From assembly GCF_965641715.1 (NCBI RefSeq), contig NZ_OZ282454.1: a stretch of 64,000 bases of DNA; one strand, written 5' to 3'. This DNA is from Escherichia coli. GTDB lineage: Bacteria; Pseudomonadota; Gammaproteobacteria; Enterobacterales; Enterobacteriaceae. Below, in pieces: positions 9,055-31,459 of the stretch. How positions within the stretch are numbered: the stretch's first letter is position 1; every line of letters begins with the position of its first letter. The translations under genes and the position numbers were made by a program. The notes below the pieces were generated by a model that saw only the letters and a list, made by a program, of their open reading frames with translations, was not told where the DNA came from and ran no database searches.

Positions 9055-9179
9055 ATGAGTATTCCTTAGTGCGTTTAAAAAAGGAAAATATCAGTCTGTG
9101 GCCGTGGATATATCACGCAGTGCCATTCCTGAAACCACAGCACAAATAAGAGATGGAGGCTTTTAACAGGAAACTAGGA

Positions 9180-9569
9180 TTAACGTTCCTTTACTGAATG
9201 AGCATCATTTAATGCCTGAATTTGTTTTTCGCGAATCTTATTGCGCTCATTTTCTCTTACCCGTTTCACCTCTGCCATTTCGTTTCTTTCTCTACACGCT
9301 GATGCAAGCTCTTTTGCCTTACCAAGACTTAAAGGTTCAGGCTGATAATCAGATGTGTCAGACTTAATAGCTTCCTTAAATGCTTCTGCTGCACAGGGGA
9401 TATCCTGTGTAATCTCTGTCAGTTGTTCTGGTGTTGCAGGTTGTTGCTCAAGGTAGTCATTGTAAAAAAGACCACATATCAACATAGCCATAACGCCAAC
9501 AAATATAAAAGCCAGAACAGATTCTAAATATATCGACTTCATTTCATTTTCCTTTGAAGCAGTAAGCAC
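9180..9569 (-). CDS. hypothetical membrane-anchored protein (cargo inside tra operon)
   Basis: 129 aa ORF with one N-terminal TM helix, charged C-terminus; AT-rich relative to flanking tra genes; no homolog recalled. Confidence 0.5.
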   Translation of the reverse strand: MLTASKENEMKSIYLESVLAFIFVGVMAMLICGLFYNDYLEQQPATPEQLTEITQDIPCAAEAFKEAIKSDTSDYQPEPLSLGKAKELASACRERNEMAEVKRVRENERNKIREKQIQALNDAHSVKER

Positions 9570-9785
9570 TCATTGCCCCCCATTCAGTGTATCCATCACG
9601 TTGTTCAAAGGTTTATTTGTTTTAACTTCAATACATTCCCCTGTATTTCCAAATCCCCTGCCTCCGTGTGATTCGATTGTCCGAAGAACCTGCACGCATA
9701 CGTCCGTATTTGGCATGGGTGTAATATTCCAGCTTCCGCCACCGTTAATATTTTTTATCAGCACAAGAAAAATAAAGGTATGCAT
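9570..9785 (-). CDS. hypothetical small protein (cargo inside tra operon)
   Basis: 71 aa ORF abutting 9180-9569 (stop/start adjacent); AT-rich. Confidence 0.35.
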   Translation of the reverse strand: MHTFIFLVLIKNINGGGSWNITPMPNTDVCVQVLRTIESHGGRGFGNTGECIEVKTNKPLNNVMDTLNGGQ

Positions 9786-9864
9786 TCTTTATTACCTCCG
9801 CTTGTATATTAATCACTGAATATCCCTTCAGTTAACTTATGAGGTCATAAAACACTGCAGATTC

Positions 9865-10338
9865 TCATTCGGATTTATTCCCTTCAGTAAACTTCCGAAT
9901 AGTATCCTGTTCACGCTGACGGGTGGCAGACTCCTGCATTGCATCCACTTTCTCCTGCCAGAGACGCCGGATATCCTTTTCATCCCGACCAGTCAGTTTT
10001 TTACCGGACAGCAGACGGTTAAGCAGTTCCTGTCTCGCATCCGGTACGTCTTCAGTCAGACGCATAAGCTGAACCAGGCTCTGACGGCTGAGGACCATGA
10101 GTGATTCCGGCAGGAGGGTGAAGAAGAAAATAAAAAAGCATACCGCACCACAGCAGGCAAGGACCGCAAACAGGATTTTCAGATATATACCATCAACGCC
10201 GAACGCAGCAATAATACAGGGAATCCATGCAATACACGCACAAAACGCCAGGATGTTATATATCCGGTTATGTCTGCAATATATCTGTTGATGTTCATCC
10301 AGAATAAAATCTATTTTTTCATTTTCTGATTTATGCAT
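9865..10338 (-). CDS. hypothetical two-TM membrane protein (cargo inside tra operon)
   Basis: ORF 9865-10377; likely start at internal Met (MHKSENEKIDF); Cys-rich hydrophobic hairpin then charged tail. Confidence 0.5.
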   Translation of the reverse strand: MHKSENEKIDFILDEHQQIYCRHNRIYNILAFCACIAWIPCIIAAFGVDGIYLKILFAVLACCGAVCFFIFFFTLLPESLMVLSRQSLVQLMRLTEDVPDARQELLNRLLSGKKLTGRDEKDIRRLWQEKVDAMQESATRQREQDTIRKFTEGNKSE

Positions 10339-10552
10339 AGTGTTTCCTCTGCCTTTCCTGATACGCCTGACATTCAACGCACAACGTCACACCGGGAAAT
10401 ATTTTCCGCCGGGCTTCCGGAATAGGATTTCCGCATGCTTCACAGAGATAAACAGGAATACTATGAACATTTATTTTCTGGCGTATCCGGTTTATTCCTG
10501 TCATGGTCAGTTGTTCTGTCACTGAATATGCTTCATCGGCTTCATCACTCAC
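10331..10552 (-). CDS. traR: TraR (DksA/TraR C4 zinc-finger family)
   Basis: 73 aa with CxxC...CxxC (CEACGNPIPEARRKIFPGVTLCVECQ). Confidence 0.9.
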   Translation of the reverse strand: MSDEADEAYSVTEQLTMTGINRIRQKINVHSIPVYLCEACGNPIPEARRKIFPGVTLCVECQAYQERQRKHYA

Positions 10553-10686
10553 GGAATATTCCTCCCGACATGTTCTGACACGCTACCGCCCATCCCTTTT
10601 CACGCACAGGGCACTCGTTTTACAGGCAGATTATGAATACAGAAAGCCCGCCGGCATTGCCGGCTGATATACAACTTCAGGGCCAG

Positions 10687-11202
10687 TTAATTAATGCGTG
10701 GTTTTCCCCACGCAGACGGTTTAATAACAAAAAACACGCTGGATGGCTGATGATAAACATCCTGATTATCAATATAAGGCGCTATCCATAATGCTGCCGT
10801 CTGCTCACCCGTTCTTAGCGGACGGGGAGGTGTTACCGGCGCAACTGAACTGACCGGAACAACCGTTTTCACTTCCCGGGCAGCCGTAAACAATGGACGT
10901 GGTGCCAGCAGTTTCTGCTCCGGAAGTGCTGTCACCGCTGGTCTGCTGCCGGACGGAGTGGTCGCGGTGACGGTCTGCACCGGCATTGTCCGGAAGTTCC
11001 CTTCAGCCAGGCGCGGCAGTGATGCCGCAACCGGCTTTGCTTCTGAGGACTGCTCCAGTTTTTTGGCCTTCTCATTGGCCTGCTCCATCGTCATACAGGT
11101 ATCGGATGTGGTGGCGTTACACTCAAATTCCGTATTTGTTCCAGCGCAGCCGGAAAGTAATAAGGTCCCCAGCAGAGGAATAAATAAAGAAATCTGTTTC
11201 AT
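10687..11202 (-). CDS. traV: TraV outer-membrane lipoprotein
   Basis: 171 aa; lipobox LLLSGC; operon position. Confidence 0.9.
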   Translation of the reverse strand: MKQISLFIPLLGTLLLSGCAGTNTEFECNATTSDTCMTMEQANEKAKKLEQSSEAKPVAASLPRLAEGNFRTMPVQTVTATTPSGSRPAVTALPEQKLLAPRPLFTAAREVKTVVPVSSVAPVTPPRPLRTGEQTAALWIAPYIDNQDVYHQPSSVFFVIKPSAWGKPRIN

Positions 11203-11450
11203 TGCCCTTCACCTTTTTTATTACTCCCCACAACAGCAGAAATTAACTCTGCTGTCAGATTTGTTTTCCCTGCACAGGGATGTCCGGAGACCACTGTATT
11301 TCCCGGAGAAGAAAATAAGCTCATCGACATTCCCTTCTTCATCACACCGACAGCAGCCATATTAAAATTGTGCGGCAATGATTCAGAACTGAACTCCTTC
11401 GGAGCAGGAAGAACTATTTTTGTGGTGCAGTTACTGAGAACAGCATGCAT
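11199..11450 (-). CDS. trbG: TrbG
   Basis: 83 aa from internal Met of ORF 11199-11567; length and position as in F; trbD location not resolved. Confidence 0.6.
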   Translation of the reverse strand: MHAVLSNCTTKIVLPAPKEFSSESLPHNFNMAAVGVMKKGMSMSLFSSPGNTVVSGHPCAGKTNLTAELISAVVGSNKKGEGQ

Positions 11451-11505
11451 AAAATCATCTGATACGTTTTTATCTGGCACAACGCGGGCTGTAATAACAT
11501 TAATA

Positions 11506-12096
11506 TTACGCATGTTCATTTTTATCTCCGTTGCTTCTGTTTGTTCGGTCATCAGGGAAATAAACATGGCATTTCCTGATTTTTCCCGGCAGGGAAGCGT
11601 CTTCCGTATAAACGTCCTTCAGATATTCATCTGCGGTTACCACCCGGATACATTTCATTTTTCCGGGCAGCACCGGATATTTCCCGGTGATCGCTGCCAG
11701 CGAGACATACATCAGTGCCAGTGTTGCCCATAATGCGGTGACCAGTTGCATCAGTGACCGGTCAGTCTCCCTGACATAATCTGCAGCATCAGCCGCGCGG
11801 TAATGGCAGATATCCTGTATTTCTGATCTGCCTGAAGAATCAGAGGAAGAAAACCAGCATTCACTGACCGGGAACTGTCCGGCAGGTGCTGTTTGTCTTA
11901 CGAAGTTAATCTCCTTAACCAGTAATTTCCCCGGCGTGGTGTTGTCCTTCCATAAAACAAACAGAGCCATCAGGGCCATTGTGGCCAGAGGCAGAATGAC
12001 GGTGTACTTCAGACACCAGAACAGTCCTCGCAGAACCCGGGCGACAACATACCGGGCGGCATGGCACGCCTGACGGGCCGACATATTATTTGCCAT
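11506..12096 (-). CDS. traP: TraP inner-membrane protein
   Basis: 196 aa as in F TraP; operon position. Confidence 0.85.
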   Translation of the reverse strand: MANNMSARQACHAARYVVARVLRGLFWCLKYTVILPLATMALMALFVLWKDNTTPGKLLVKEINFVRQTAPAGQFPVSECWFSSSDSSGRSEIQDICHYRAADAADYVRETDRSLMQLVTALWATLALMYVSLAAITGKYPVLPGKMKCIRVVTADEYLKDVYTEDASLPGKIRKCHVYFPDDRTNRSNGDKNEHA

Positions 12097-14815: not shown

Positions 14816-15127
14816 CTATTTAATCCACTGCCGGAAACACGAATCGGGAACATTATGAAAAATACCGCGCAGCAGGGCTGTTGGCATATACCAGTAAATC
14901 AGGTCTCGTAACCAGGAACTGCCCCGCCCTTTTTTCAGTTTTTTAATCCCGAAATAAACCAGAACCGCTGCACCAATACCGAACAGATATTTCGATGTTG
15001 TGATACCCCAGCCAATACAGATTGCTGCGGGGATCAGTTCATCCAGTGGCAGGCCAAACCAGCGGCTCTGGTTGGTCAGTGTTTCCGGGAAACGATATTT
15101 CTTAAGTTTATTCTCGTCTCCCGACAT
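14816..15127 (-). CDS. traL: TraL pilus assembly protein
   Basis: small membrane protein directly downstream of traA; true start may be internal. Confidence 0.8.
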
Positions 15128-15141
15128 CGTTTTATTTCCTG

Positions 15142-15501
15142 TCAGAGGCCAACGACGGCCATACCCACAGCAATAAATACAGAGATGATGGCAAAACCGG
15201 CCAGGAACTTGACGTTTTTGGTCATCATGTACATGACCGCACCGACCAGAACTTCAGCCAAAACGACCCATTTAACAACACTGGAGTCCTTACCGAAGGT
15301 CGCCTTAACCGTGGTGTTACCGCTTGCCATCAGGTCCTGGCCCTGTGCTGCCATTGCCAGTTGCGGGAAGAACATCATCAGAACAGCAGCCGGGATCACA
15401 GCGCGAGCCAGGCGAAGCATATTCAGACGAGTGAATTTAGAAAAAAACGACTTCTTTTTGACGGGCGCAGAAGCACCCTGAACACTTAAAACAGCATTCA
15501 T
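15142..15501 (-). CDS. traA: TraA propilin (F-pilin precursor), group II / ColB2-like N-terminus
   Basis: 119 aa; leader ...FFPQLAMA then mature [21 protein letters not shown]...; 2 aa shorter than recalled F (AGSSGQDL). Confidence 0.92.
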
Positions 15502-15533: not shown

Positions 15534-15935
15534 CTAGAGTGTATTAAATGTTATATCTTCCTCTTTATCTGCCTCCCTGAATATCTCCGAGTTATAAAAA
15601 TCAGGAAACTTGATCAAATGATCAATAACTCTGTCTGCAGCCTCATCTGTTTTACACCATCCACTACGATTTTTGGCTGCAATAAGTAGCTGGTTAGTTT
15701 CATCATCCAGACGCATTGTCAGATACTTAACCAGCGACTTACCATAGATATTCCCTGCCCTGTTAAACTTTGGATAGCGGTGAAGATGATCTTTAAGTCT
15801 TATTACTGCCTCAAACGATCGACTTCTTCCGCTTCTGTTACTTGCCTCAATTAATAGACTTTCCACATCTACAGGTAATTTTAGTTTTACCATCTTACCT
15901 GTTGCAGAACGTGTACCAAATCTTTTCAATAACAC
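15534..15935 (-). CDS. traY: TraY (ribbon-helix-helix oriT-binding protein)
   Basis: near-identical to recalled F TraY (KRFGTRSATGKMVKLKLPVDVESLLIEASNRSGRSRSFEAVIRLKDHL); probable non-ATG start. Confidence 0.88.
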   Translation of the reverse strand: MLLKRFGTRSATGKMVKLKLPVDVESLLIEASNRSGRSRSFEAVIRLKDHLHRYPKFNRAGNIYGKSLVKYLTMRLDDETNQLLIAAKNRSGWCKTDEAADRVIDHLIKFPDFYNSEIFREADKEEDITFNTL

Positions 15936-16027: not shown

Positions 16028-16717
16028 TTAACGCGTATTTATGATACACATAGCCTTCTCGTACAAATAATGAATAAACTTTTTATTGTAGAGTAAGATG
16101 ATTAACTCATCTTTATTAGAAACAGAGAAGTAGTCGCATATCAGAGATGCGTGTTTCTTTGATGTGGAGATGGATATGTTTAATATTCTTGCTATAGCAT
16201 TATGACTGATTCCGGTGCTATATAAGTAAAAGACATCATTTACATATGATGATACAGAAGAATCATCACTCATTCTTCTGATTATATTTCTGATATCATC
16301 ACTGACAATCGTTTTTTGATTATAACTGTCTTTATGACGAACATGAGCAGCATCATAAAATTGCCACAGAATGATATTTCTGTGTCCATTAAGAAATGAC
16401 TGGACAGATATTGTCCAGAATCTGTTCTGAATAAAAACATCCTCTACAAGATTAAGATGCGTATGCTCATTCCTGTATGCTTCCATCTCTGTGACAGAGA
16501 TCAATTCACAAAAATCTCTCTGCGACAGAAGCCATTTTTCAGCACTTTGATCTTGTGTAAGAAATGACTCATGAAACAGCGTATTGCAAAAAATAAATTT
16601 TCCAGTTTCGTCCCTGATACAGGCTGGATTTGGATAATCCTGAATAACTGCCGTCAGATTTTCCAGCAGATCTATTTGACGAGCATGTTTTTGTTGAATA
16701 CGATCCATCGGATACAT
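16028..16717 (-). CDS. traJ: TraJ transfer activator
   Basis: start at internal Met (MYPMDRIQQKHARQIDLLENL) with GAGGAGG RBS upstream; 229 aa as in F. Confidence 0.9.
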   Translation of the reverse strand: MYPMDRIQQKHARQIDLLENLTAVIQDYPNPACIRDETGKFIFCNTLFHESFLTQDQSAEKWLLSQRDFCELISVTEMEAYRNEHTHLNLVEDVFIQNRFWTISVQSFLNGHRNIILWQFYDAAHVRHKDSYNQKTIVSDDIRNIIRRMSDDSSVSSYVNDVFYLYSTGISHNAIARILNISISTSKKHASLICDYFSVSNKDELIILLYNKKFIHYLYEKAMCIINTR

Positions 16718-16797
16718 AGGAACCTCCTCACAAAGGATTCTATGGACAGTCGATGCAGGGAGGAGAGAACTCCCTGCATCGGCGATTTTCAAATTCA
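16715..16797 (+). ncRNA. finP: FinP antisense RNA (approximate ends)
   Basis: antisense to traJ leader/RBS; perfect hairpin GATGCAGGGAG...CTCCCTGCATC followed by GATTTT. Confidence 0.5.
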
Positions 16798-16903
16798 AAT
16801 TTTAACGTGGCATTAACCACGTAATTAATATACTAATTATCTTTCGTACTGTCACCCTTTTAAATCATAAAAACTCTGATGTTTGAACGAAGTCAAATTT
16901 CTT

Positions 16904-17287
16904 TTATTCATCATCATTTTTTGGAAAAAATCGTTCCATCTCAGATGATACCTTCTCCCTGATATCTTCAACCATATTGGCATATTCAAACTTTGGATTT
17001 CCGGAGACATGAGGACTGAGAGACTCAATACCCAAAATTTTCGCTACTGATGATTGTGTTTTTACAACGCATTCAAGAAGCAATTTATTAAACTCAGTCT
17101 GATTAAATGCAGACTCTTTACGCTCCATCTGAGCCTCATGTACACGAAGCCCCAGTTCAAGAAGCATTGACGCTGTTGCTGAAAAACTGACATCTTTTTC
17201 CCTTGCCCCTTCCTGTCGACGCTTCTCAATAATCGCATTTATTTTTTCATAGGCATCATTGCTGATATACAGGTTCACCTTAGCCAT
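16904..17287 (-). CDS. traM: TraM relaxosome accessory protein
   Basis: 127 aa identical over its length to recalled F TraM (MAKVNLYISNDAYEKINAIIEKRRQEGAREKD...). Confidence 0.95.
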   Translation of the reverse strand: MAKVNLYISNDAYEKINAIIEKRRQEGAREKDVSFSATASMLLELGLRVHEAQMERKESAFNQTEFNKLLLECVVKTQSSVAKILGIESLSPHVSGNPKFEYANMVEDIREKVSSEMERFFPKNDDE

Positions 17288-17289
17288 TA

Positions 17290-17640
17290 GAGATTACCTT
17301 TTTTGAACATAAAATAAAGTTAATTTCGAAACACTAAAATTCATAATGCAAACAGGGACGCACCGCTAGCAGCGCCCCTAGCGGTATCCTATAAAAAAAC
17401 ACACCGCGCCGCTAGCAGCACCCCTAATATAAAATAATGTTTTTTATAAAAATAGTCAGTCCCCCCCCTACAAAGCGGTGTCGGCGCGTTGTTGTAGCCG
17501 CGCCGACACCGCTTTTTTAAATATCATAAAGAGAGTAAGAGAAACTAATTTTTCATAACTCTCTATTTATAAAGAAAAATCAGCAAAAACTTGTTTTTGC
17601 GTGGGGTGTGGTGCTTTTGGTGGTGAGAACCACCAACTAG
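17290..17640 (+). promoter_or_regulatory. oriT: oriT region with F-type nic motif; inferred nic between 17609 and 17610
   Basis: TTTGCGTGGGGTGT/GGTGCTTTTGGTGGTGAGAACCACC at 17597-17635; GCTAGCAGC-containing direct repeats and a long inverted repeat (17479-17516) upstream; lies between traM and geneX. Confidence 0.8.
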
Positions 17641-17700
17641 TTGAGCCTTATTGTGGAGTAGGTTAAATTATTTCCGGATAATGTCACCAGAGGTGAAAAA

Positions 17701-18210
17701 ATGAAAAAGTGGATGTTAGCAATCTGCCTGATGTTTATAAATGGAATCTGCGAAGCCGCCGATTGCTTTGATCTTGCAGGTCTGGATTACAAAATAGACC
17801 CGGATTTACTGAGAGCGATATCATGGAAAGAATCCCGTTACCGGGTTAATGCCATTGGTATTAATCCGGTAACGGGATATGGCAGCGGACTGATGCAGGT
17901 AGACTCCCAGCATTTTAACGAACTGGCCCGCTACGGAATTAAGCCAGAACATCTGACAACAGATCCCTGCATGAACATTTATACCGGTGCCTATTATCTG
18001 GCAATAGCATTTAAAAAATGGGGCGTATCCTGGGAAGCCGTTGGTGCATACAATGCCGGATTCAAAAAGAGTGAACGCCAGAACCGGAGGCGTCTTGCTT
18101 ATGCATCAGACGTTTACCGGATTTATACCGGGATAAAGAGCAGTAAAGGCATCCGGGTTCCGACCACGAAGAAATCACTCCCCCAAATTAACAGTGTGCA
18201 GAACAATTAA
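17701..18210 (+). CDS. lytic transglycosylase GeneX/Orf169 (P19 family)
   Basis: 169 aa with signal peptide and SLT-like motifs (ISWKESRY...GLMQV...AYNAG); first gene beyond oriT. Confidence 0.88.
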
Positions 18211-18492: not shown

Positions 18493-18665
18493 CTTTACTT
18501 ATATTATCATGACTTCCACTCCCTGAACTGTTCGGCAATCATCCATAATGCTTTGTTGATTCGGATATCACCGTCAATGCCTGTAATTGCTCTTGTTCTG
18601 GTATTTTTACCGGAGGCACTTCGCCCCGATAATCCACCTTTTATCATATTCTCCTGAACCCGCTG

Positions 18666-19328
18666 CTAGGTTGTCCAGAGATCGTTCTGTTTATCCTCCC
18701 AACGGCGGGGAGTAATTATTTGTTCAGGCGTCACTGGCGTTTTATTTTCATCTTCATACCTGACCATCAATGCAGCTCTGCCAAATAAATATTGTTCGTC
18801 ACTGTTAAGATGTATCCCTTTCATTGTCTCCATATTTTCAGTGACTTTATCAAAGACACCGGGCACTTCATACGCTCCCTCAATAACCTGCCCGACAATA
18901 TCACCTTTATGTGGAACGCGGATTTCGCCAAAATTATTCCCGCACACCAGGCCATTTGTGTAGACAAAACGAAAAATTCCTGGGATCATCTGATAACTGG
19001 ATGAACCATCATGTGAATTAAGCAGGGTAATTTCAGGAACTTCTTTCCCGTTAATATGCCCTTCCCTGCGAAGACGTAACATATGTTTACTGTATTCGCG
19101 GCGTCCCAAATCACGAACCCGACTCTGACAGGCAAAGAACGGCTGGAAACCTTCATCACGTAACTTATTGATGATATTGATGGTTGGGATATATGTATAA
19201 CGCTCACTCCGGGATTCATGTTTATCACCAGAAAAAACAGATGGAACAAACTGCATTAATTCGTCATCCGTTAACGGGCGCTCACGGCGAATAGAATTAT
19301 ATCGACCAAAACGGGAAGCTAATCGCAT
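18666..19328 (-). CDS. hypothetical leading-region protein (possibly DUF932-like)
   Basis: 220 aa ORF; family assignment from memory only. Confidence 0.55.
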   Translation of the reverse strand: MRLASRFGRYNSIRRERPLTDDELMQFVPSVFSGDKHESRSERYTYIPTINIINKLRDEGFQPFFACQSRVRDLGRREYSKHMLRLRREGHINGKEVPEITLLNSHDGSSSYQMIPGIFRFVYTNGLVCGNNFGEIRVPHKGDIVGQVIEGAYEVPGVFDKVTENMETMKGIHLNSDEQYLFGRAALMVRYEDENKTPVTPEQIITPRRWEDKQNDLWTT

Positions 19329-20385: not shown

Positions 20386-20547
20386 CTACTTACCGCCGGA
20401 TTCGTAAGCCATGCTTGCCGTAACCTCCCTGTATCCGTCCTTCAGCCGTATTTCGCACAGACGATTCCGGGTCAGGAGTGTGAATATCAACAACGTGCAG
20501 CACACGATTAATACGCACCAGATAAGGGCGTTTCCCGGTAGTTTCAT
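20386..20547 (-). CDS. hok: Hok/Gef family toxin (FlmA/Hok-like)
   Basis: hand translation [53 protein letters not shown] (53 aa); not in supplied ORF track (under 60 aa). Confidence 0.85.
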
Positions 20548-20605
20548 GGTTTACTCCTCCTTGCAATTTGCACGGTAAGAGGCCATACTGACGTGGACTA
20601 GACAT
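20390..20605 (-). CDS. mok: Mok-like overlapping reading frame
   Basis: 71 aa ORF overlapping hok in a different frame, as in hok/mok/sok loci. Confidence 0.55.
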
Positions 20606-21064
20606 GCAAAGGCCTCGTGGGTTAATGAAAATTAACTACGGGGCTTTTGTCCTTCTGCCACACGACAGGATAACAAACCACCTTCACGTCATGAGGCAGA
20701 AAGCCTCAAGCGCCGGGCACATCATAGCCCATATACCTGCACGCTGACCACATTCACTTTCCCTGAAAATAATCCGGTCGTTCAGCCAGTTCACGGGCAA
20801 TCAGTTCATCCGCAAACAGTGGTGCATGCCTGTTGATACGTTTCTCCAGATTCCGCCGTCGTACCACAGCCTTACGTTCTTCGCTCCAGCGGCGCACCTA
20901 GCGGTCAGAAATAAAATCCAGACAGACCGCATACCCTGCACCGGCAACCCAGCGTGACATAACGGATGCCGGTGCAGGCTGCCCCGCCTCCACCACTTCT
21001 GAAACCAGTTCATGCTCGCCAGGACAGGGAGAAGGCAGTTTCCAGCGCAATGAGTAACGCCACT

Positions 21065-27996: not shown

Positions 27997-28227
27997 TCAG
28001 TTAAAAGCGCGTTTCAGTTCGAGTGTGCGGAGCACCTGCCCGAAAGCCGTGTTTTTCATGGCGGGGATGTGTACACCACGCCCCCGGTGAAAACTCCGGG
28101 CTATGTGTCGCCCGAAGGCTTTCAGCACGGGGGCAATTTCCGGCGCGGGGATGTCTTCGCGTCTGAAACGGGGATGACGGCGGGGCTTTACAGCCGCTGC
28201 GGAAGGTGAAACAATACTTAAAGTCAT
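27997..28227 (-). CDS. hypothetical small protein
   Basis: 76 aa basic ORF first downstream of repeat copy C. Confidence 0.4.
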   Translation of the reverse strand: MTLSIVSPSAAAVKPRRHPRFRREDIPAPEIAPVLKAFGRHIARSFHRGRGVHIPAMKNTAFGQVLRTLELKRAFN

Positions 28228-28454
28228 AATTTAGCCTCTTATGACGGTTGAATGGAGCCGCAAAAACTGTTCGTGCAGTCTCTGCGGCGTGGATTAAGCA
28301 GGTCCCTGACCTGCTTTTTTCATATCTGCATCTGACGTTCTCCGGTGTTTTCCTCCTTCTGTTCCTGCGTTTTCATTACCTGCCAGCCGGATGACTGGCA
28401 GAATACATAAATGCGTATTGCCGGAGCCTGAAATAAATCCTGATTTTTAAAGAA

Positions 28455-30120: not shown

Positions 30121-31459
30121 CATAAGCGCTAACTTAAGGGTTGAACCATCTGAAGAATGCGACGCCTCGGTGCCTCGTTAAGACGATGCCTCGCGTTCTT
30201 CAATTGCGTTTTGTAGGCTGTCAGGGATACTGTCCCACGAATGGCCACCTGTAAGCTCCAGATGACCATTTTTGTTATTCTCCACAACGAGTTAGTTCTT
30301 CTTTTCGGATCCGGCACTTCTGGGGGGGAAATCCAGCGATGGCTGGATTATGTCGTCAATTAAAAATGCGGCGAGTAGATTAGCAAATATCCACGCTTTC
30401 GCGAGTTCAGGTTCCTTTGCACGCAAAGCATCCAGGTGCAGCAAACTTTTGAGCCGCTTAAAAGCCAGTTCAATTTGCCATCGCAGACGGTAACAATCAG
30501 CCACTTGCTCTGCTGAATATTCATCTTCCGGTAATGATGTTAGCAATAGCACATGGCCCGCTGCTTCCAGCGTTTCCGCCTGAACTACTCGTCCTTTTCG
30601 ACGATTCTCGCTGAGCAGTCGGGTTTTACTGATTAATGCTTTTTCGGGAGGAAGTGATACGGCAATGAGACGTGCCGGAAAGGGAGCTCCGGCTTTTTTA
30701 TTACCTGAATTGCCTATCATTACAGTGGTTTCACCGTTCTTACCGCAATCCAGCCCGCGCAGAAAACCCATCATGTCAAAGCGCATTCCTTCTGCAGTTA
30801 ACCAGCGCAATCCTCGCCAGTGAACCCGGACGATATAATCAGCTTCTCCAAAAGCAAGTGAGCGGATACATTCGGGACGCGAACCGAATCCCCGGTCAGC
30901 AATGCGTATCTCGTCTGCCGTTTGCGCAAATCGGTCCAGCCGTTCAGCGTCTCTGCTGTCGGTTAGCTCAAAATCAGTGAACTGACAGGTATGAGGATCA
31001 TATCCCATATGTAGTCGCCATTCAGCGCTGCCGCCCCCGGGCGCACTGATTGCTGTTCCATCGACAAGACGCAATCTCTTTCCGCTTGTACAACCCGTAA
31101 CTGCGGCGCGTACAGCAAGTGTTTGTGCGGCAAGTATGCCAAACCAGTCGGCGGCATTCCGCAGCCGCTTCAGGAGAGCCACGTCAGATAATGTTGCAAC
31201 GTCATGGAGCTGAGCCCATGCAGTGACTTCACGTAATGACATCCCCCCGGGGCCGTAAGCCAGCCCCAGACGTAGCAGAGTTGCAGCATCACGAATTTCG
31301 CGGCGGCGGGTTAGAGCCCCGGCATTACGTGCCGAAGTATCCAGTTCTTCGGGCTTACCAATATGGGCCAGAATTGCTGACCAGTTATCGTGAGAGTAAT
31401 TCATCGGCACGTTAAATCATATCAGGCGTAATACCACAACCCTTAAGTTAGCGCTTATG
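30121..31459 (-). mobile_element. IS186 (IS4 family), complete, with target-site duplication
   Basis: 1339 bp; terminal inverted repeats CATAAGCGCTAACTTAAGGGTTG (30121-30143) and CAACCCTTAAGTTAGCGCTTATG (31437-31459); flanking direct repeat GGATTCTCCC(C). Confidence 0.9.
30292..31410 (-). CDS. IS186 transposase
   Basis: 372 aa ORF matching recalled IS186 transposase (MNYSHDNWSAILAHIGKPEELDTSARNAGALTRRREIRDAATLLRLGLAYGPGGMSLREV...). Confidence 0.92.
   Translation of the reverse strand: MPMNYSHDNWSAILAHIGKPEELDTSARNAGALTRRREIRDAATLLRLGLAYGPGGMSLREVTAWAQLHDVATLSDVALLKRLRNAADWFGILAAQTLAVRAAVTGCTSGKRLRLVDGTAISAPGGGSAEWRLHMGYDPHTCQFTDFELTDSRDAERLDRFAQTADEIRIADRGFGSRPECIRSLAFGEADYIVRVHWRGLRWLTAEGMRFDMMGFLRGLDCGKNGETTVMIGNSGNKKAGAPFPARLIAVSLPPEKALISKTRLLSENRRKGRVVQAETLEAAGHVLLLTSLPEDEYSAEQVADCYRLRWQIELAFKRLKSLLHLDALRAKEPELAKAWIFANLLAAFLIDDIIQPSLDFPPRSAGSEKKN

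What the first reader, a model, noticed from the sequence alone, without database searches (positions are those of the whole stretch)
15142..15501. Pilin N-terminus is not F-type (AQGQDLMAS instead of AGSSGQDLMAS)
The mature pilin N-terminus determines serological group and sensitivity to some pilus-specific phages. This propilin carries the shorter N-terminus I associate with ColB2-type F-like pili, whereas the TraM, TraC and TraY sequences look F-identical, suggesting a mosaic tra region.
Basis: partly seen in the sequence, partly recalled or inferred. Interest (0 to 1): 0.25.

Follow-up and report, generated by a model that had tools for sequence, protein, structure and literature searches.

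The report
Common non-F pilin allele in traA
The conjugative pilin gene of this F-like plasmid carries a well-known and very common natural variant of the short flexible tip of the pilin protein (AQG instead of F's AGSSG), set in an otherwise F-type transfer operon by ordinary recombination between related plasmids.

Summary
traA lies on the minus strand (15501 to 15142) and encodes a 119-aa propilin. It is identical to F TraA (121 aa) except just after the leader-peptidase site, where the mature protein starts AQGQDLMAS rather than AGSSGQDLMAS.

The variant is not new. The exact protein is the Swiss-Prot-derived UniRef entry PIL6_ECOLX and was seen on at least 1000 contigs. The exact N-terminal peptide occurs in 839 of about 4,600 traA-bearing PLSDB plasmids, against 1,115 with the F type.

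The "ColB2-type" label matches my recollection of Finlay 1984 and Frost 1985. Those papers are not held, so I could not check the prototype sequence.

The mosaic idea is supported at nucleotide level:
- traY is 402/402 identical to F and traL differs at 1/312.
- traA carries 10 substitutions plus a 6-nt indel, clustered in about 200 nt (pS 0.12 against about 0.01 in the flanks).
- The same traA haplotype occurs in IncFIC-type plasmids with unrelated traJ and traY.

Patchiness is pervasive, however. traB, traC and traF are equally diverged, and trbD-traV is R100-like.

The changed residues lie in the flexible N-terminal tail, the most variable part of F-like pilins. The likely effect is on antigenicity and perhaps RNA-phage binding.

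Verdict: real, ordinary, already known.

The parts
15142..15501 (-). traA, propilin gene: 119 codons plus stop
   Evidence: ORF list. NCBIfam NF010294, F-type pilin TraA, 231.7 bits against a cutoff of 150; TIGR02758, 129 bits against 76.6. 100% nucleotide identity to the annotated traA of CP057088.1.
15349..15501 (-). 51-codon leader peptide, ending in the signal-peptidase site Ala-Met-Ala; protein-identical to F
   Evidence: Translation and alignment with F. Cleavage between Ala51 and Ala52 by LepB is taken from the F literature (PMC7555446) and is inferred here.
15340..15348 (-). Codons 52-54, GCA CAG GGC = Ala-Gln-Gly: the variant N-terminal tail of the mature pilin. F has GCC GGC AGC AGT GGT = Ala-Gly-Ser-Ser-Gly.
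15145..15339 (-). Codons 55-119, the body of the mature pilin (QDLMAS...VVGL). It is identical in protein to F pilin and to the 65-residue modelled chain of the F-pilus structures 5LER/5LFB/6NM5.
   Evidence: where query residues 55-119 align with chain residues 1-65 with no mismatch.
15238..15439 (-). Locally diverged nucleotide patch relative to F: 8 silent substitutions plus the recoded and shortened tail codons. This is the recombinant segment.
15534..15935 (-). traY, F-type long (duplicated) allele; 402/402 nt identical to F
   Evidence: NCBIfam NF010303, 301.7 bits against a cutoff of 232.
16028..16717 (-). traJ, F-type allele, 228/229 aa
   Evidence: NCBIfam NF010275, 541 bits; all other TraJ sub-models fall far below their cutoffs.
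16904..17287 (-). traM, F-type allele, 126/127 aa
14816..15127 (-). traL, 103/103 aa identical to F. It is also only 1-3 nt different in every F-like plasmid compared.
185..469 (-). traQ, the pilin chaperone needed for propilin insertion; 93/94 aa to F
   Evidence: TIGR02741, 179 bits.

Best explanation
Window 15142-15501 (minus strand) is a functional traA gene. It encodes an F-like propilin of the allelic type I recall as ColB2 / group IIa.

By analogy with F, the processing runs as follows. The 119-aa propilin is inserted into the inner membrane with the help of TraQ. Leader peptidase cleaves it after Ala-Met-Ala51. TraX N-acetylates it. The result is a 68-residue pilin starting (Ac-)AQGQDLMAS.

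Residues from Gln55 onward, which form the whole structured body of the pilus subunit, are identical to F pilin. Only the short, flexible N-terminal tail differs, with 3 residues in place of 5. Pilus assembly and DNA transfer should therefore be as in F. What changes is the tail, which in the F literature is the dominant type-specific epitope and may touch the maturation protein of RNA phages.

The allele reached its present neighbourhood by homologous recombination among F-like plasmids. That neighbourhood is an F-type traM-traJ-traY specificity cassette upstream and conserved traL-traE downstream. The tra operon as a whole is a patchwork of F-identical, F-diverged and R100-like segments.

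Shown here: the sequence difference, the frequency of the allele, the patchy divergence, and haplotype sharing across backbones.

Inferred: cleavage, acetylation, the serological and phage consequences, and the direction of transfer.
For: Identity of the gene:
- ORF and Shine-Dalgarno sequence.
- NCBIfam pilin models pass their cutoffs.
- Operon order is traM-traJ-traY-traA-traL-traE-traK-traB... with traQ present.

The difference from F is confined to the tail. The modelled F-pilus chain (5LER and related entries) starts at the Gln that follows the variable residues. PMC6635492 states that the first five residues, AGSSG, are flexible and unresolved in the apo pilus, and that extra density from a pilin N-terminus enters a hydrophobic pocket of the MS2 Mat protein.

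The allele is common:
- The exact protein is PIL6_ECOLX and was seen on at least 1000 contigs.
- The exact 37-aa peptide occurs in 839 PLSDB plasmids, against 1,115 for the F-type peptide, out of about 4,613 with traA.

Recombination:
- Per-gene mismatches to F are traY 0/402, traA 10/360 plus 6 gap columns, traL 1/312 and traE 2/567.
- pS is 0.119 for traA, against 0.000, 0.014 and 0.008 for the flanking genes. Fisher p = 1.4e-5.
- All sampled AQGQ alleles share the linked silent sites T63, T102, A141, A147 and A153, whether next to F-type traJ/traY (pE2863-3) or next to a different traJ and a short traY (five IncFIC-type plasmids).

Pervasive mosaic:
- pS is 0.11 in traB and traF and 0.075 in traC.
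- TrbD is 99% to R100 against 80% to F, and trbG is absent.

The tail is the hypervariable part of F-like pilins. Seven different tails occur among 13 natural alleles.

traX and a full-length finO are present in the 99.96%-identical plasmid pRHB38-C15_2.
Against: - The ColB2 prototype sequence could not be retrieved. The type name rests on memory plus an uninformative Swiss-Prot identifier.
- traX and the distal tra genes lie outside the window, so acetylation and transfer competence of this particular element are not shown.
- traL and traE are nearly invariant among all F-like plasmids. Their identity to F says little about ancestry, so the downstream boundary of the recombinant patch is poorly defined.
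- No experiment or paper consulted here shows that AQG versus AGSSG changes phage sensitivity. The RNA-phage contact residues cited in PMC6635492 (e.g. Ala18) are unchanged.
Confidence: 0.9

Rival explanations
1. The allele arose in this lineage directly from F-type traA, by an in-frame 6-nt deletion plus point changes under selection on the pilin tip. No DNA was imported from another plasmid.
For: The protein differs from F only in the tail, and the flanking genes are F-identical. The tail is a hotspot of length variation among alleles.
Against: - Eight additional silent substitutions surround the tail within about 200 nt, while 402 nt of traY have none.
- The same silent-site haplotype occurs in plasmids with unrelated traJ/traY.
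- The tail codons cannot be derived from F's by a simple deletion: GCA GCA CAG GGC CAG against GCC GCC GGC AGC AGT GGT CAG.
Confidence: 0.04
2. traA is not the imported piece. The plasmid backbone is a 5-12% (silent-site) diverged relative of F. The F-identical stretches (traM, traY, traL-traE, traW) are the recent imports from an F-like donor, and traA is a remnant of the resident sequence.
For: traB, traF and traC show the same silent divergence as traA (0.11, 0.11 and 0.075), whereas the near-identical segments are short and scattered. In a spread sample, 5 of 6 AQGQ plasmids carry non-F traJ/traY.
Against: No evidence obtained here decides the direction. traL and traE are conserved everywhere, so they need not be imports. 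This is a variant of the main explanation, with the same mosaic and the opposite polarity, not a contradiction of it.
Confidence: 0.35
3. The difference is a sequencing or assembly artefact, or the gene is a decaying pseudogene.
For: No evidence obtained here supports this.
Against: - The ORF is intact, has an RBS and is in frame.
- The exact protein occurs on at least 1000 contigs, and the peptide in 839 complete plasmids.
- One complete plasmid matches at 100% nucleotide identity.
- The neighbouring tra genes are intact.
Confidence: 0.01

Closest known systems
ColB2 (group IIa) F-like pilin; Swiss-Prot PIL6_ECOLX
   Same: The window protein is the exact sequence behind the UniRef representative PIL6_ECOLX. 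I recall from Finlay, Frost and Paranchych 1984 and Frost et al. 1985 that ColB2 pilin equals F pilin except for Ac-Ala-Gln-Gly in place of Ac-Ala-Gly-Ser-Ser-Gly, which is exactly what is seen here. ColB2 is listed as its own traA subtype (IIa) and as one of five pilin types in PMC2836999 and PMC3245843.
   Different: Identity to the prototype could not be checked, because the papers and the ColB2 record are not held. From memory only (Finlay et al. 1986): ColB2/ColB4-K98 carries its own 'type II' oriT, traM and traY alleles, whereas this window has F-type traM, traJ and traY. On that recollection the element is not a ColB2-like plasmid, only a carrier of that pilin allele.
F pilin (TraA of plasmid F, PIL1_ECOLI; PDB 5LER/5LFB/6NM5, 9MOQ)
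   Same: The 51-aa leader is identical, and so are mature residues from QDLMAS to the C-terminus. Operon position and accessory genes (TraQ 93/94) are the same.
   Different: The mature N-terminal tail is AQG against AGSSG, giving a 68-residue pilin against 70. At nucleotide level there are 10 substitutions plus a 6-nt indel.
traA regions of pRHB38-C15_2 (CP057088.1), pE2863-3 (AP018805.1) and related plasmids such as the 77.7-kb plasmid of E. coli O111:H- 11128 (NC_013366.1)
   Same: - pRHB38-C15_2 has traA 360/360 nt identical and is 99.96% identical to the window over 30 kb.
- pE2863-3 has the same combination of F-type traM/traJ/traY, the AQGQ traA and the same finP loop.
- For NC_013366.1 only a 99.4% traA match was seen; its flanks were not examined.
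   Different: - The window has an extra IS4-family insertion at 30121-31459 and is rearranged beyond 38775 relative to pRHB38-C15_2.
- pE2863-3 differs at 2 silent sites in the 3' half of traA.
R100/R100-1 (group IV) pilin
   Same: The length is the same (119 aa), and so are the family and the operon position.
   Different: There are 14 substitutions. The tail is AGKG-DLMAKGND, and the leader and C-terminus also differ.

Membership tests
F-type conjugative pilin TraA (NCBIfam NF010294 / TIGR02758) | Profile match above the curated cutoff over the full length | tested here: met
   NF010294 scores 231.7 bits against a cutoff of 150, covering residues 1-119. TIGR02758 scores 129.2 against 76.55.
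F-type conjugative pilin TraA (NCBIfam NF010294 / TIGR02758) | Long (about 51 aa) leader ending in an Ala-X-Ala signal-peptidase site, followed by a roughly 70-aa hydrophobic mature pilin | tested here: met
   The leader is identical to F and ends A49-M50-A51. The mature part is 68 aa. Cleavage itself is inferred.
F-type conjugative pilin TraA (NCBIfam NF010294 / TIGR02758) | Position between traY and traL in a tra operon that also encodes the chaperone TraQ | tested here: met
   Gene order. TraQ matches TIGR02741 at 179 bits.
F-type conjugative pilin TraA (NCBIfam NF010294 / TIGR02758) | N-acetylation of the mature N-terminus by TraX | not testable with these tools
   traX lies outside the window. 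It is annotated in the 99.96%-identical pRHB38-C15_2. The chemistry cannot be tested in silico.
F pilin sensu stricto (group I: F, ColVBtrp) | Mature N-terminus AGSSGQDLMAS | tested here: not met
   The window has [10 protein letters not shown] (NC_002483) and PDB 9moq_A have AGSSGQDLMAS.
ColB2-type pilin (group IIa) | Mature N-terminus AQGQDLMAS, with the remainder identical to F pilin | tested here: inconclusive
   The window sequence has exactly this. That this is the ColB2 sequence is recalled, not verified: PMC214732 and PMC219321 are not held, and no held paper contains the peptide. Indirect support comes from the exact match to the separately curated PIL6_ECOLX.
ColB2-type pilin (group IIa) | Reaction with anti-ColB2 pilus serum and not with the F N-terminus-specific monoclonal antibody | not testable with these tools
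   This is a serological property and needs purified pili.
R100-1-type pilin (group IV) | N-terminus AGKGDLMAKGND, plus leader and C-terminal substitutions | tested here: not met
   105/119 identity to R100 TraA, with a different tail.
F-type (allele I) traM-traJ-traY specificity cassette | TraJ, TraY and TraM proteins of the F allele | tested here: met
   TraJ is 228/229, TraY 133/133 and TraM 126/127 to F. Against R100 the figures are 24% for TraJ, 50% for TraY over a partial alignment, and 90% for TraM. The F-specific NCBIfam equivalogs NF010275 and NF010303 pass their cutoffs.
F-type (allele I) traM-traJ-traY specificity cassette | F-type finP / traJ-leader loop sequences | tested here: not met
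   The loop of the long stem-loop is TTCTCTC here and ACGTGAA in F. The stem and the second hairpin are identical.

The most novel reading that the evidence does not exclude
The pilin tail and the finP loop are two tiny, fully recoded 'micro-cassettes': 3-5 codons and 7 nt respectively. Each is embedded in otherwise F-identical sequence. The most novel reading is that both are targets of diversifying selection, with each short specificity determinant exchanged or re-invented independently of its gene. For the pilin tail, selection would come from RNA phages, whose Mat protein may grip the pilin N-terminus (PMC6635492), or from host antibody. For the finP loop, it would come from escape from cross-repression by co-resident plasmids. 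If the AQG tail measurably lowers MS2/R17/Qbeta adsorption or infection relative to AGSSG, natural tail variation would be a plasmid-borne phage-escape polymorphism, present in thousands of clinical and livestock plasmids.
Probability: 0.15. Interest if true: 0.4.

Novelty: already known. Interest (0 to 1): 0.1.

Why it matters
It matters little on its own. Pilin N-terminal types of F-like plasmids have been catalogued since the 1980s, and this allele is carried by roughly a fifth of sequenced traA-bearing plasmids.

Its practical relevance is threefold:
- Annotation: the gene should be labelled as a non-F, ColB2-type pilin allele in an F-type regulatory context.
- Typing: traA tail type, traJ/traY type and finP loop type assort independently, so none predicts the others.
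- Phage-based anti-plasmid strategies: male-specific phages are proposed as tools against resistance plasmids (PMC6717204), and natural pilin variation limits their host range. Whether the tail contributes to that is still untested.

Tried and rejected
- Retrieval of the primary ColB2 and F-like pilin papers and the 1994 and 1996-1999 reviews and comparisons (PMC214732, PMC219321, PMC372961, PMC94017, PMC178070): none is held.
- Full-text search for the peptides AQGQDL, AGSSGQDL or their three-letter forms. It found only PMC6635492, for AGSSG. All 11 papers mentioning ColB2 were listed and none gives the sequence.
- AP001918 as the accession for F was not found. NC_002483 was used instead.
- A DNA query spanning F-type traY plus the 5' part of traA, meant to count the exact traY(F)/traA(AQGQ) combination, was uninformative. 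The variable site lay at the query end, so F-type hits were simply truncated. The combination frequency therefore remains unknown beyond the sample (window, pRHB38-C15_2, pE2863-3, and H89/H90 at 100% and 99.6% over full length).
- The traU line of the dN/dS script is an alignment artefact and is not used. tblastn gives TraU 326/330.
- Rejected readings: artefact or pseudogene; simple deletion derivative of F traA; R100-type pilin. See the rival explanations and membership tests.
- Structure prediction and the large protein-database searches were not run, because the answer did not depend on them.

Full report
**What is at the coordinates.** The interval 15142..15501 is exactly one ORF including its stop codon, but it is on the minus strand. 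It is preceded by TTGAGGTAACTT-ATG, a good ribosome-binding site. The 119-aa product passes NCBIfam's F-type pilin models: NF010294 scores 231.7 bits against a cutoff of 150, and TIGR02758 scores 129 bits. It sits in the canonical order traM (16904-17287), traJ (16028-16717), traY (15534-15935), traA, traL (14816-15127), traE, traK, traB, and so on down to traQ (185-469), all on the minus strand. The window is 99.96% identical over its first 30 kb to pRHB38-C15_2 (CP057088.1), an IncFIA/FIB plasmid from pig faeces, whose traA is 360/360 identical.

**Check of the observation.** I aligned the window gene against the reference F plasmid (NC_002483, traA at L002:8266-8631) and against the full-length pilin chain PDB 9moq_A. 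The window protein is identical to both except directly after the leader. F reads ...PQLAMA|AGSSGQDLMAS and the window reads ...[15 protein letters not shown]. The leader (51 aa) and everything from Gln55 to the C-terminus are identical, so the predicted mature pilin has 68 residues instead of 70. The companion claims are close: TraY is 133/133 to F, TraM 126/127 and TraC 872/874. TraC is also 868/876 to R100, so it is not diagnostic. TraJ is 228/229.

I could not verify this. Those papers and later reviews are not held. No held paper contains the peptide, and the 11 papers that mention ColB2 do not give the sequence.

The tools do show three things:
- The exact window protein is the sequence behind the UniRef representative PIL6_ECOLX, a curated entry distinct from F's PIL1_ECOLI.
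- Held literature recognises ColB2 as its own pilin type. PMC2836999 lists subtype I (F, ColVBtrp), IIa (ColB2), IIb (R124), III (R1) and IV (R100). PMC3245843 names five types that alter phage sensitivity.
- The window is neither type I nor type IV.

The label is therefore probable but rests partly on memory.

**How common it is.** A tblastn search with the 37-aa peptide spanning the site found it exactly in 839 PLSDB plasmids. The equivalent F-type peptide is exact in 1,115, out of about 4,613 plasmids with a traA match. The exact full-length protein was seen on at least 1000 contigs, which is the counter's cap. This is one of the two most frequent pilin tails in sequenced F-like plasmids.

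**Is the region mosaic?** At nucleotide level the answer is yes.
- Against F, traY has 0/402 mismatches, traL 1/312, traE 2/567 and traM 2/384. traA has 10 mismatches plus six gap columns, all between traA nucleotides 63 and 264, which is window 15238-15439.
- Ten of the 13 coding substitutions in the 1.7 kb from traY to traE fall in that 208-nt stretch (binomial p about 1e-7).
- Eight of the changes are silent. Synonymous divergence is 0.119 in traA, against 0.000, 0.014 and 0.008 in traY, traL and traE (Fisher p = 1.4e-5).

I then took six plasmids at even steps through the 839 carriers.
- All share the linked silent variants T63, T102, A141, A147 and A153 with the window.
- Only one (pE2863-3) has F-type traM/traJ/traY.
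- The other five, mostly IncFIC-type, have an unrelated traJ and a short 75-aa traY.

So the pilin haplotype and the regulatory cassette have reassorted.

Two qualifications apply. First, traL and traE differ by only 1-7 nt in all but R100 of the F-like plasmids compared; R100 traE differs at 35/567. Their identity to F is therefore uninformative and the downstream breakpoint is undefined. Second, traA is not the only diverged patch. traB, traF and traC have pS of 0.114, 0.113 and 0.075. TrbD is 99% to R100 against 80% to F, TraV is 98.8% to R100 against 95.9% to F, trbG is missing, and R100-like ORFs lie between traR and traC. The direction of exchange cannot be decided from these data: either traA was imported into an F-type region, or F-type segments were imported around a resident traA.

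**What the change probably does.** The steps below are inferred from F biology as summarised in PMC7555446:
- TraQ-assisted membrane insertion.
- LepB cleavage between Ala51 and Ala52. The -3/-1 Ala-Met-Ala motif is unchanged.
- TraX acetylation of the new N-terminus. traX is outside the window but present in pRHB38-C15_2.

The variant residues lie wholly in the segment missing from the F-pilus models, since chain 5LER begins at the Gln that follows them. PMC6635492 says the five residues AGSSG are flexible and unresolved in the free pilus. It adds that in the MS2-bound pilus extra density from one pilin N-terminus enters a hydrophobic pocket of the phage maturation protein, and it suggests their absence in pED208 pilin may weaken MS2 binding.

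In an alignment of 13 natural alleles, the tail and residue +14 are the most variable columns. The tails seen are AQ--GQ, AGSSGQ, AGK-G-, AQGAGQ, SG--SQ, ASSSGQ and AGG-SQ, and the membrane-embedded body is almost invariant. The most likely consequence is a different N-terminal epitope, perhaps with a modest change in RNA-phage adsorption. Pilus assembly and DNA transfer should be as in F. No source consulted here tests this tail specifically.

**Comparison and verdict.** The gene is a member of the F-type TraA family: all testable features are met. It fails the defining feature of F pilin sensu stricto. It matches the sequence recalled for ColB2/group IIa pilin. It is embedded in an F-type traM-traJ-traY cassette, which itself carries a non-F finP loop. 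Nothing here is new in kind. Pilin types, allele-specific regulatory cassettes and mosaic F-like transfer regions are textbook features of IncF plasmids, and this allele is abundant. I score interest at 0.1 and novelty as already known.

The least ordinary reading still open is that tail variation is a phage- or antibody-driven polymorphism exchanged as a micro-cassette. I give it about 0.15 probability and moderate interest if shown.

Noticed in passing
window 16711-16822 (FinP on +, traJ 5' UTR on -); loop at about 16763-16769: Rfam finds FinP and the traJ leader. The long stem-loop GATGCAGGGAG-[loop]-CTCCCTGCATC has loop TTCTCTC here and in pE2863-3, but ACGTGAA in F, although TraJ is 228/229 identical to F and the second hairpin is unchanged. 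Other plasmids show further loops: AGCGAC in R100, CTTGTCC, and GTCTGAA. This is a non-F finP specificity allele inside an F-type traJ, and a second 'micro-cassette' like the pilin tail.
   Followed up: partly
L006/L007 against L008/L009 (loci from PLSDB), finP long stem-loop: The loop is GTCTGAA in two plasmids and its exact reverse complement TTCAGAC in two others, with identical palindromic stems. This looks like an inversion of the hairpin.
   Followed up: no
window 10300-11520 and 9070-10290: The trbD-traV-traR segment is R100-like: TrbD is 105/106 to R100 against 47/59 to F, and TraV is 169/171 against 164/171. trbG is absent. About 1.2 kb between traR and traC has no counterpart in F but matches R100's small ORFs.
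   Followed up: partly
window 30121-31459: A 1.34-kb insertion relative to pRHB38-C15_2 encodes a 372-aa IS4-family transposase (NF033592, 133 bits). It has terminal inverted repeats CATAAGCGCTAACTTAAGGG and is flanked by a GC-rich direct repeat, GGGATTCTCCCC. From memory this is IS186-like.
   Followed up: partly
window 38775 onward; 39001-64000: Collinearity with pRHB38-C15_2 breaks at an IS481-family element. The rest of the window matches a distant part of the same plasmid (coordinates 102958-140512), which carries the AIDA-I autotransporter adhesin with its heptosyltransferase, tet(A), TnAs1 and several IS elements. The replicon is a pig-associated virulence and resistance plasmid. pRHB38-C15_2 also carries STb and EAST1 toxin genes, which I did not locate in the window.
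   Followed up: partly
window 20545-20715 (-) and 28222-28319 (+): The leading region contains the sok antisense RNA of a hok/sok-type module (98 bits) and the Rfam family AS-pc01 (107 bits).
   Followed up: no
window 17608-18210 (+) and 18510-19328 (-): The lytic transglycosylase gene (orf169 / gene X homologue) and the DUF932 gene next to oriT are only 92-93% identical in nucleotides to F, while the adjacent oriT-traM segment is 98.8-99.5% identical. This is another sharp mosaic boundary, near 17600.
   Followed up: no
L006 and L007 (PLSDB plasmids pRIVM_C039205_2 and RCS28_pI); L013: Some alleles, including AQGQ-type ones, carry one extra C-terminal lysine (...VVGLK, 120 aa). This may be the distinction between pilin subgroups IIa and IIb, but I could not check that.
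   Followed up: no
L020 (CP057088.1 94324-94884): The near-identical relative has a full-length finO (561 nt). In F, from memory, finO is disrupted by IS3. Pilus expression from this plasmid type is therefore probably repressed, not constitutive.
   Followed up: no
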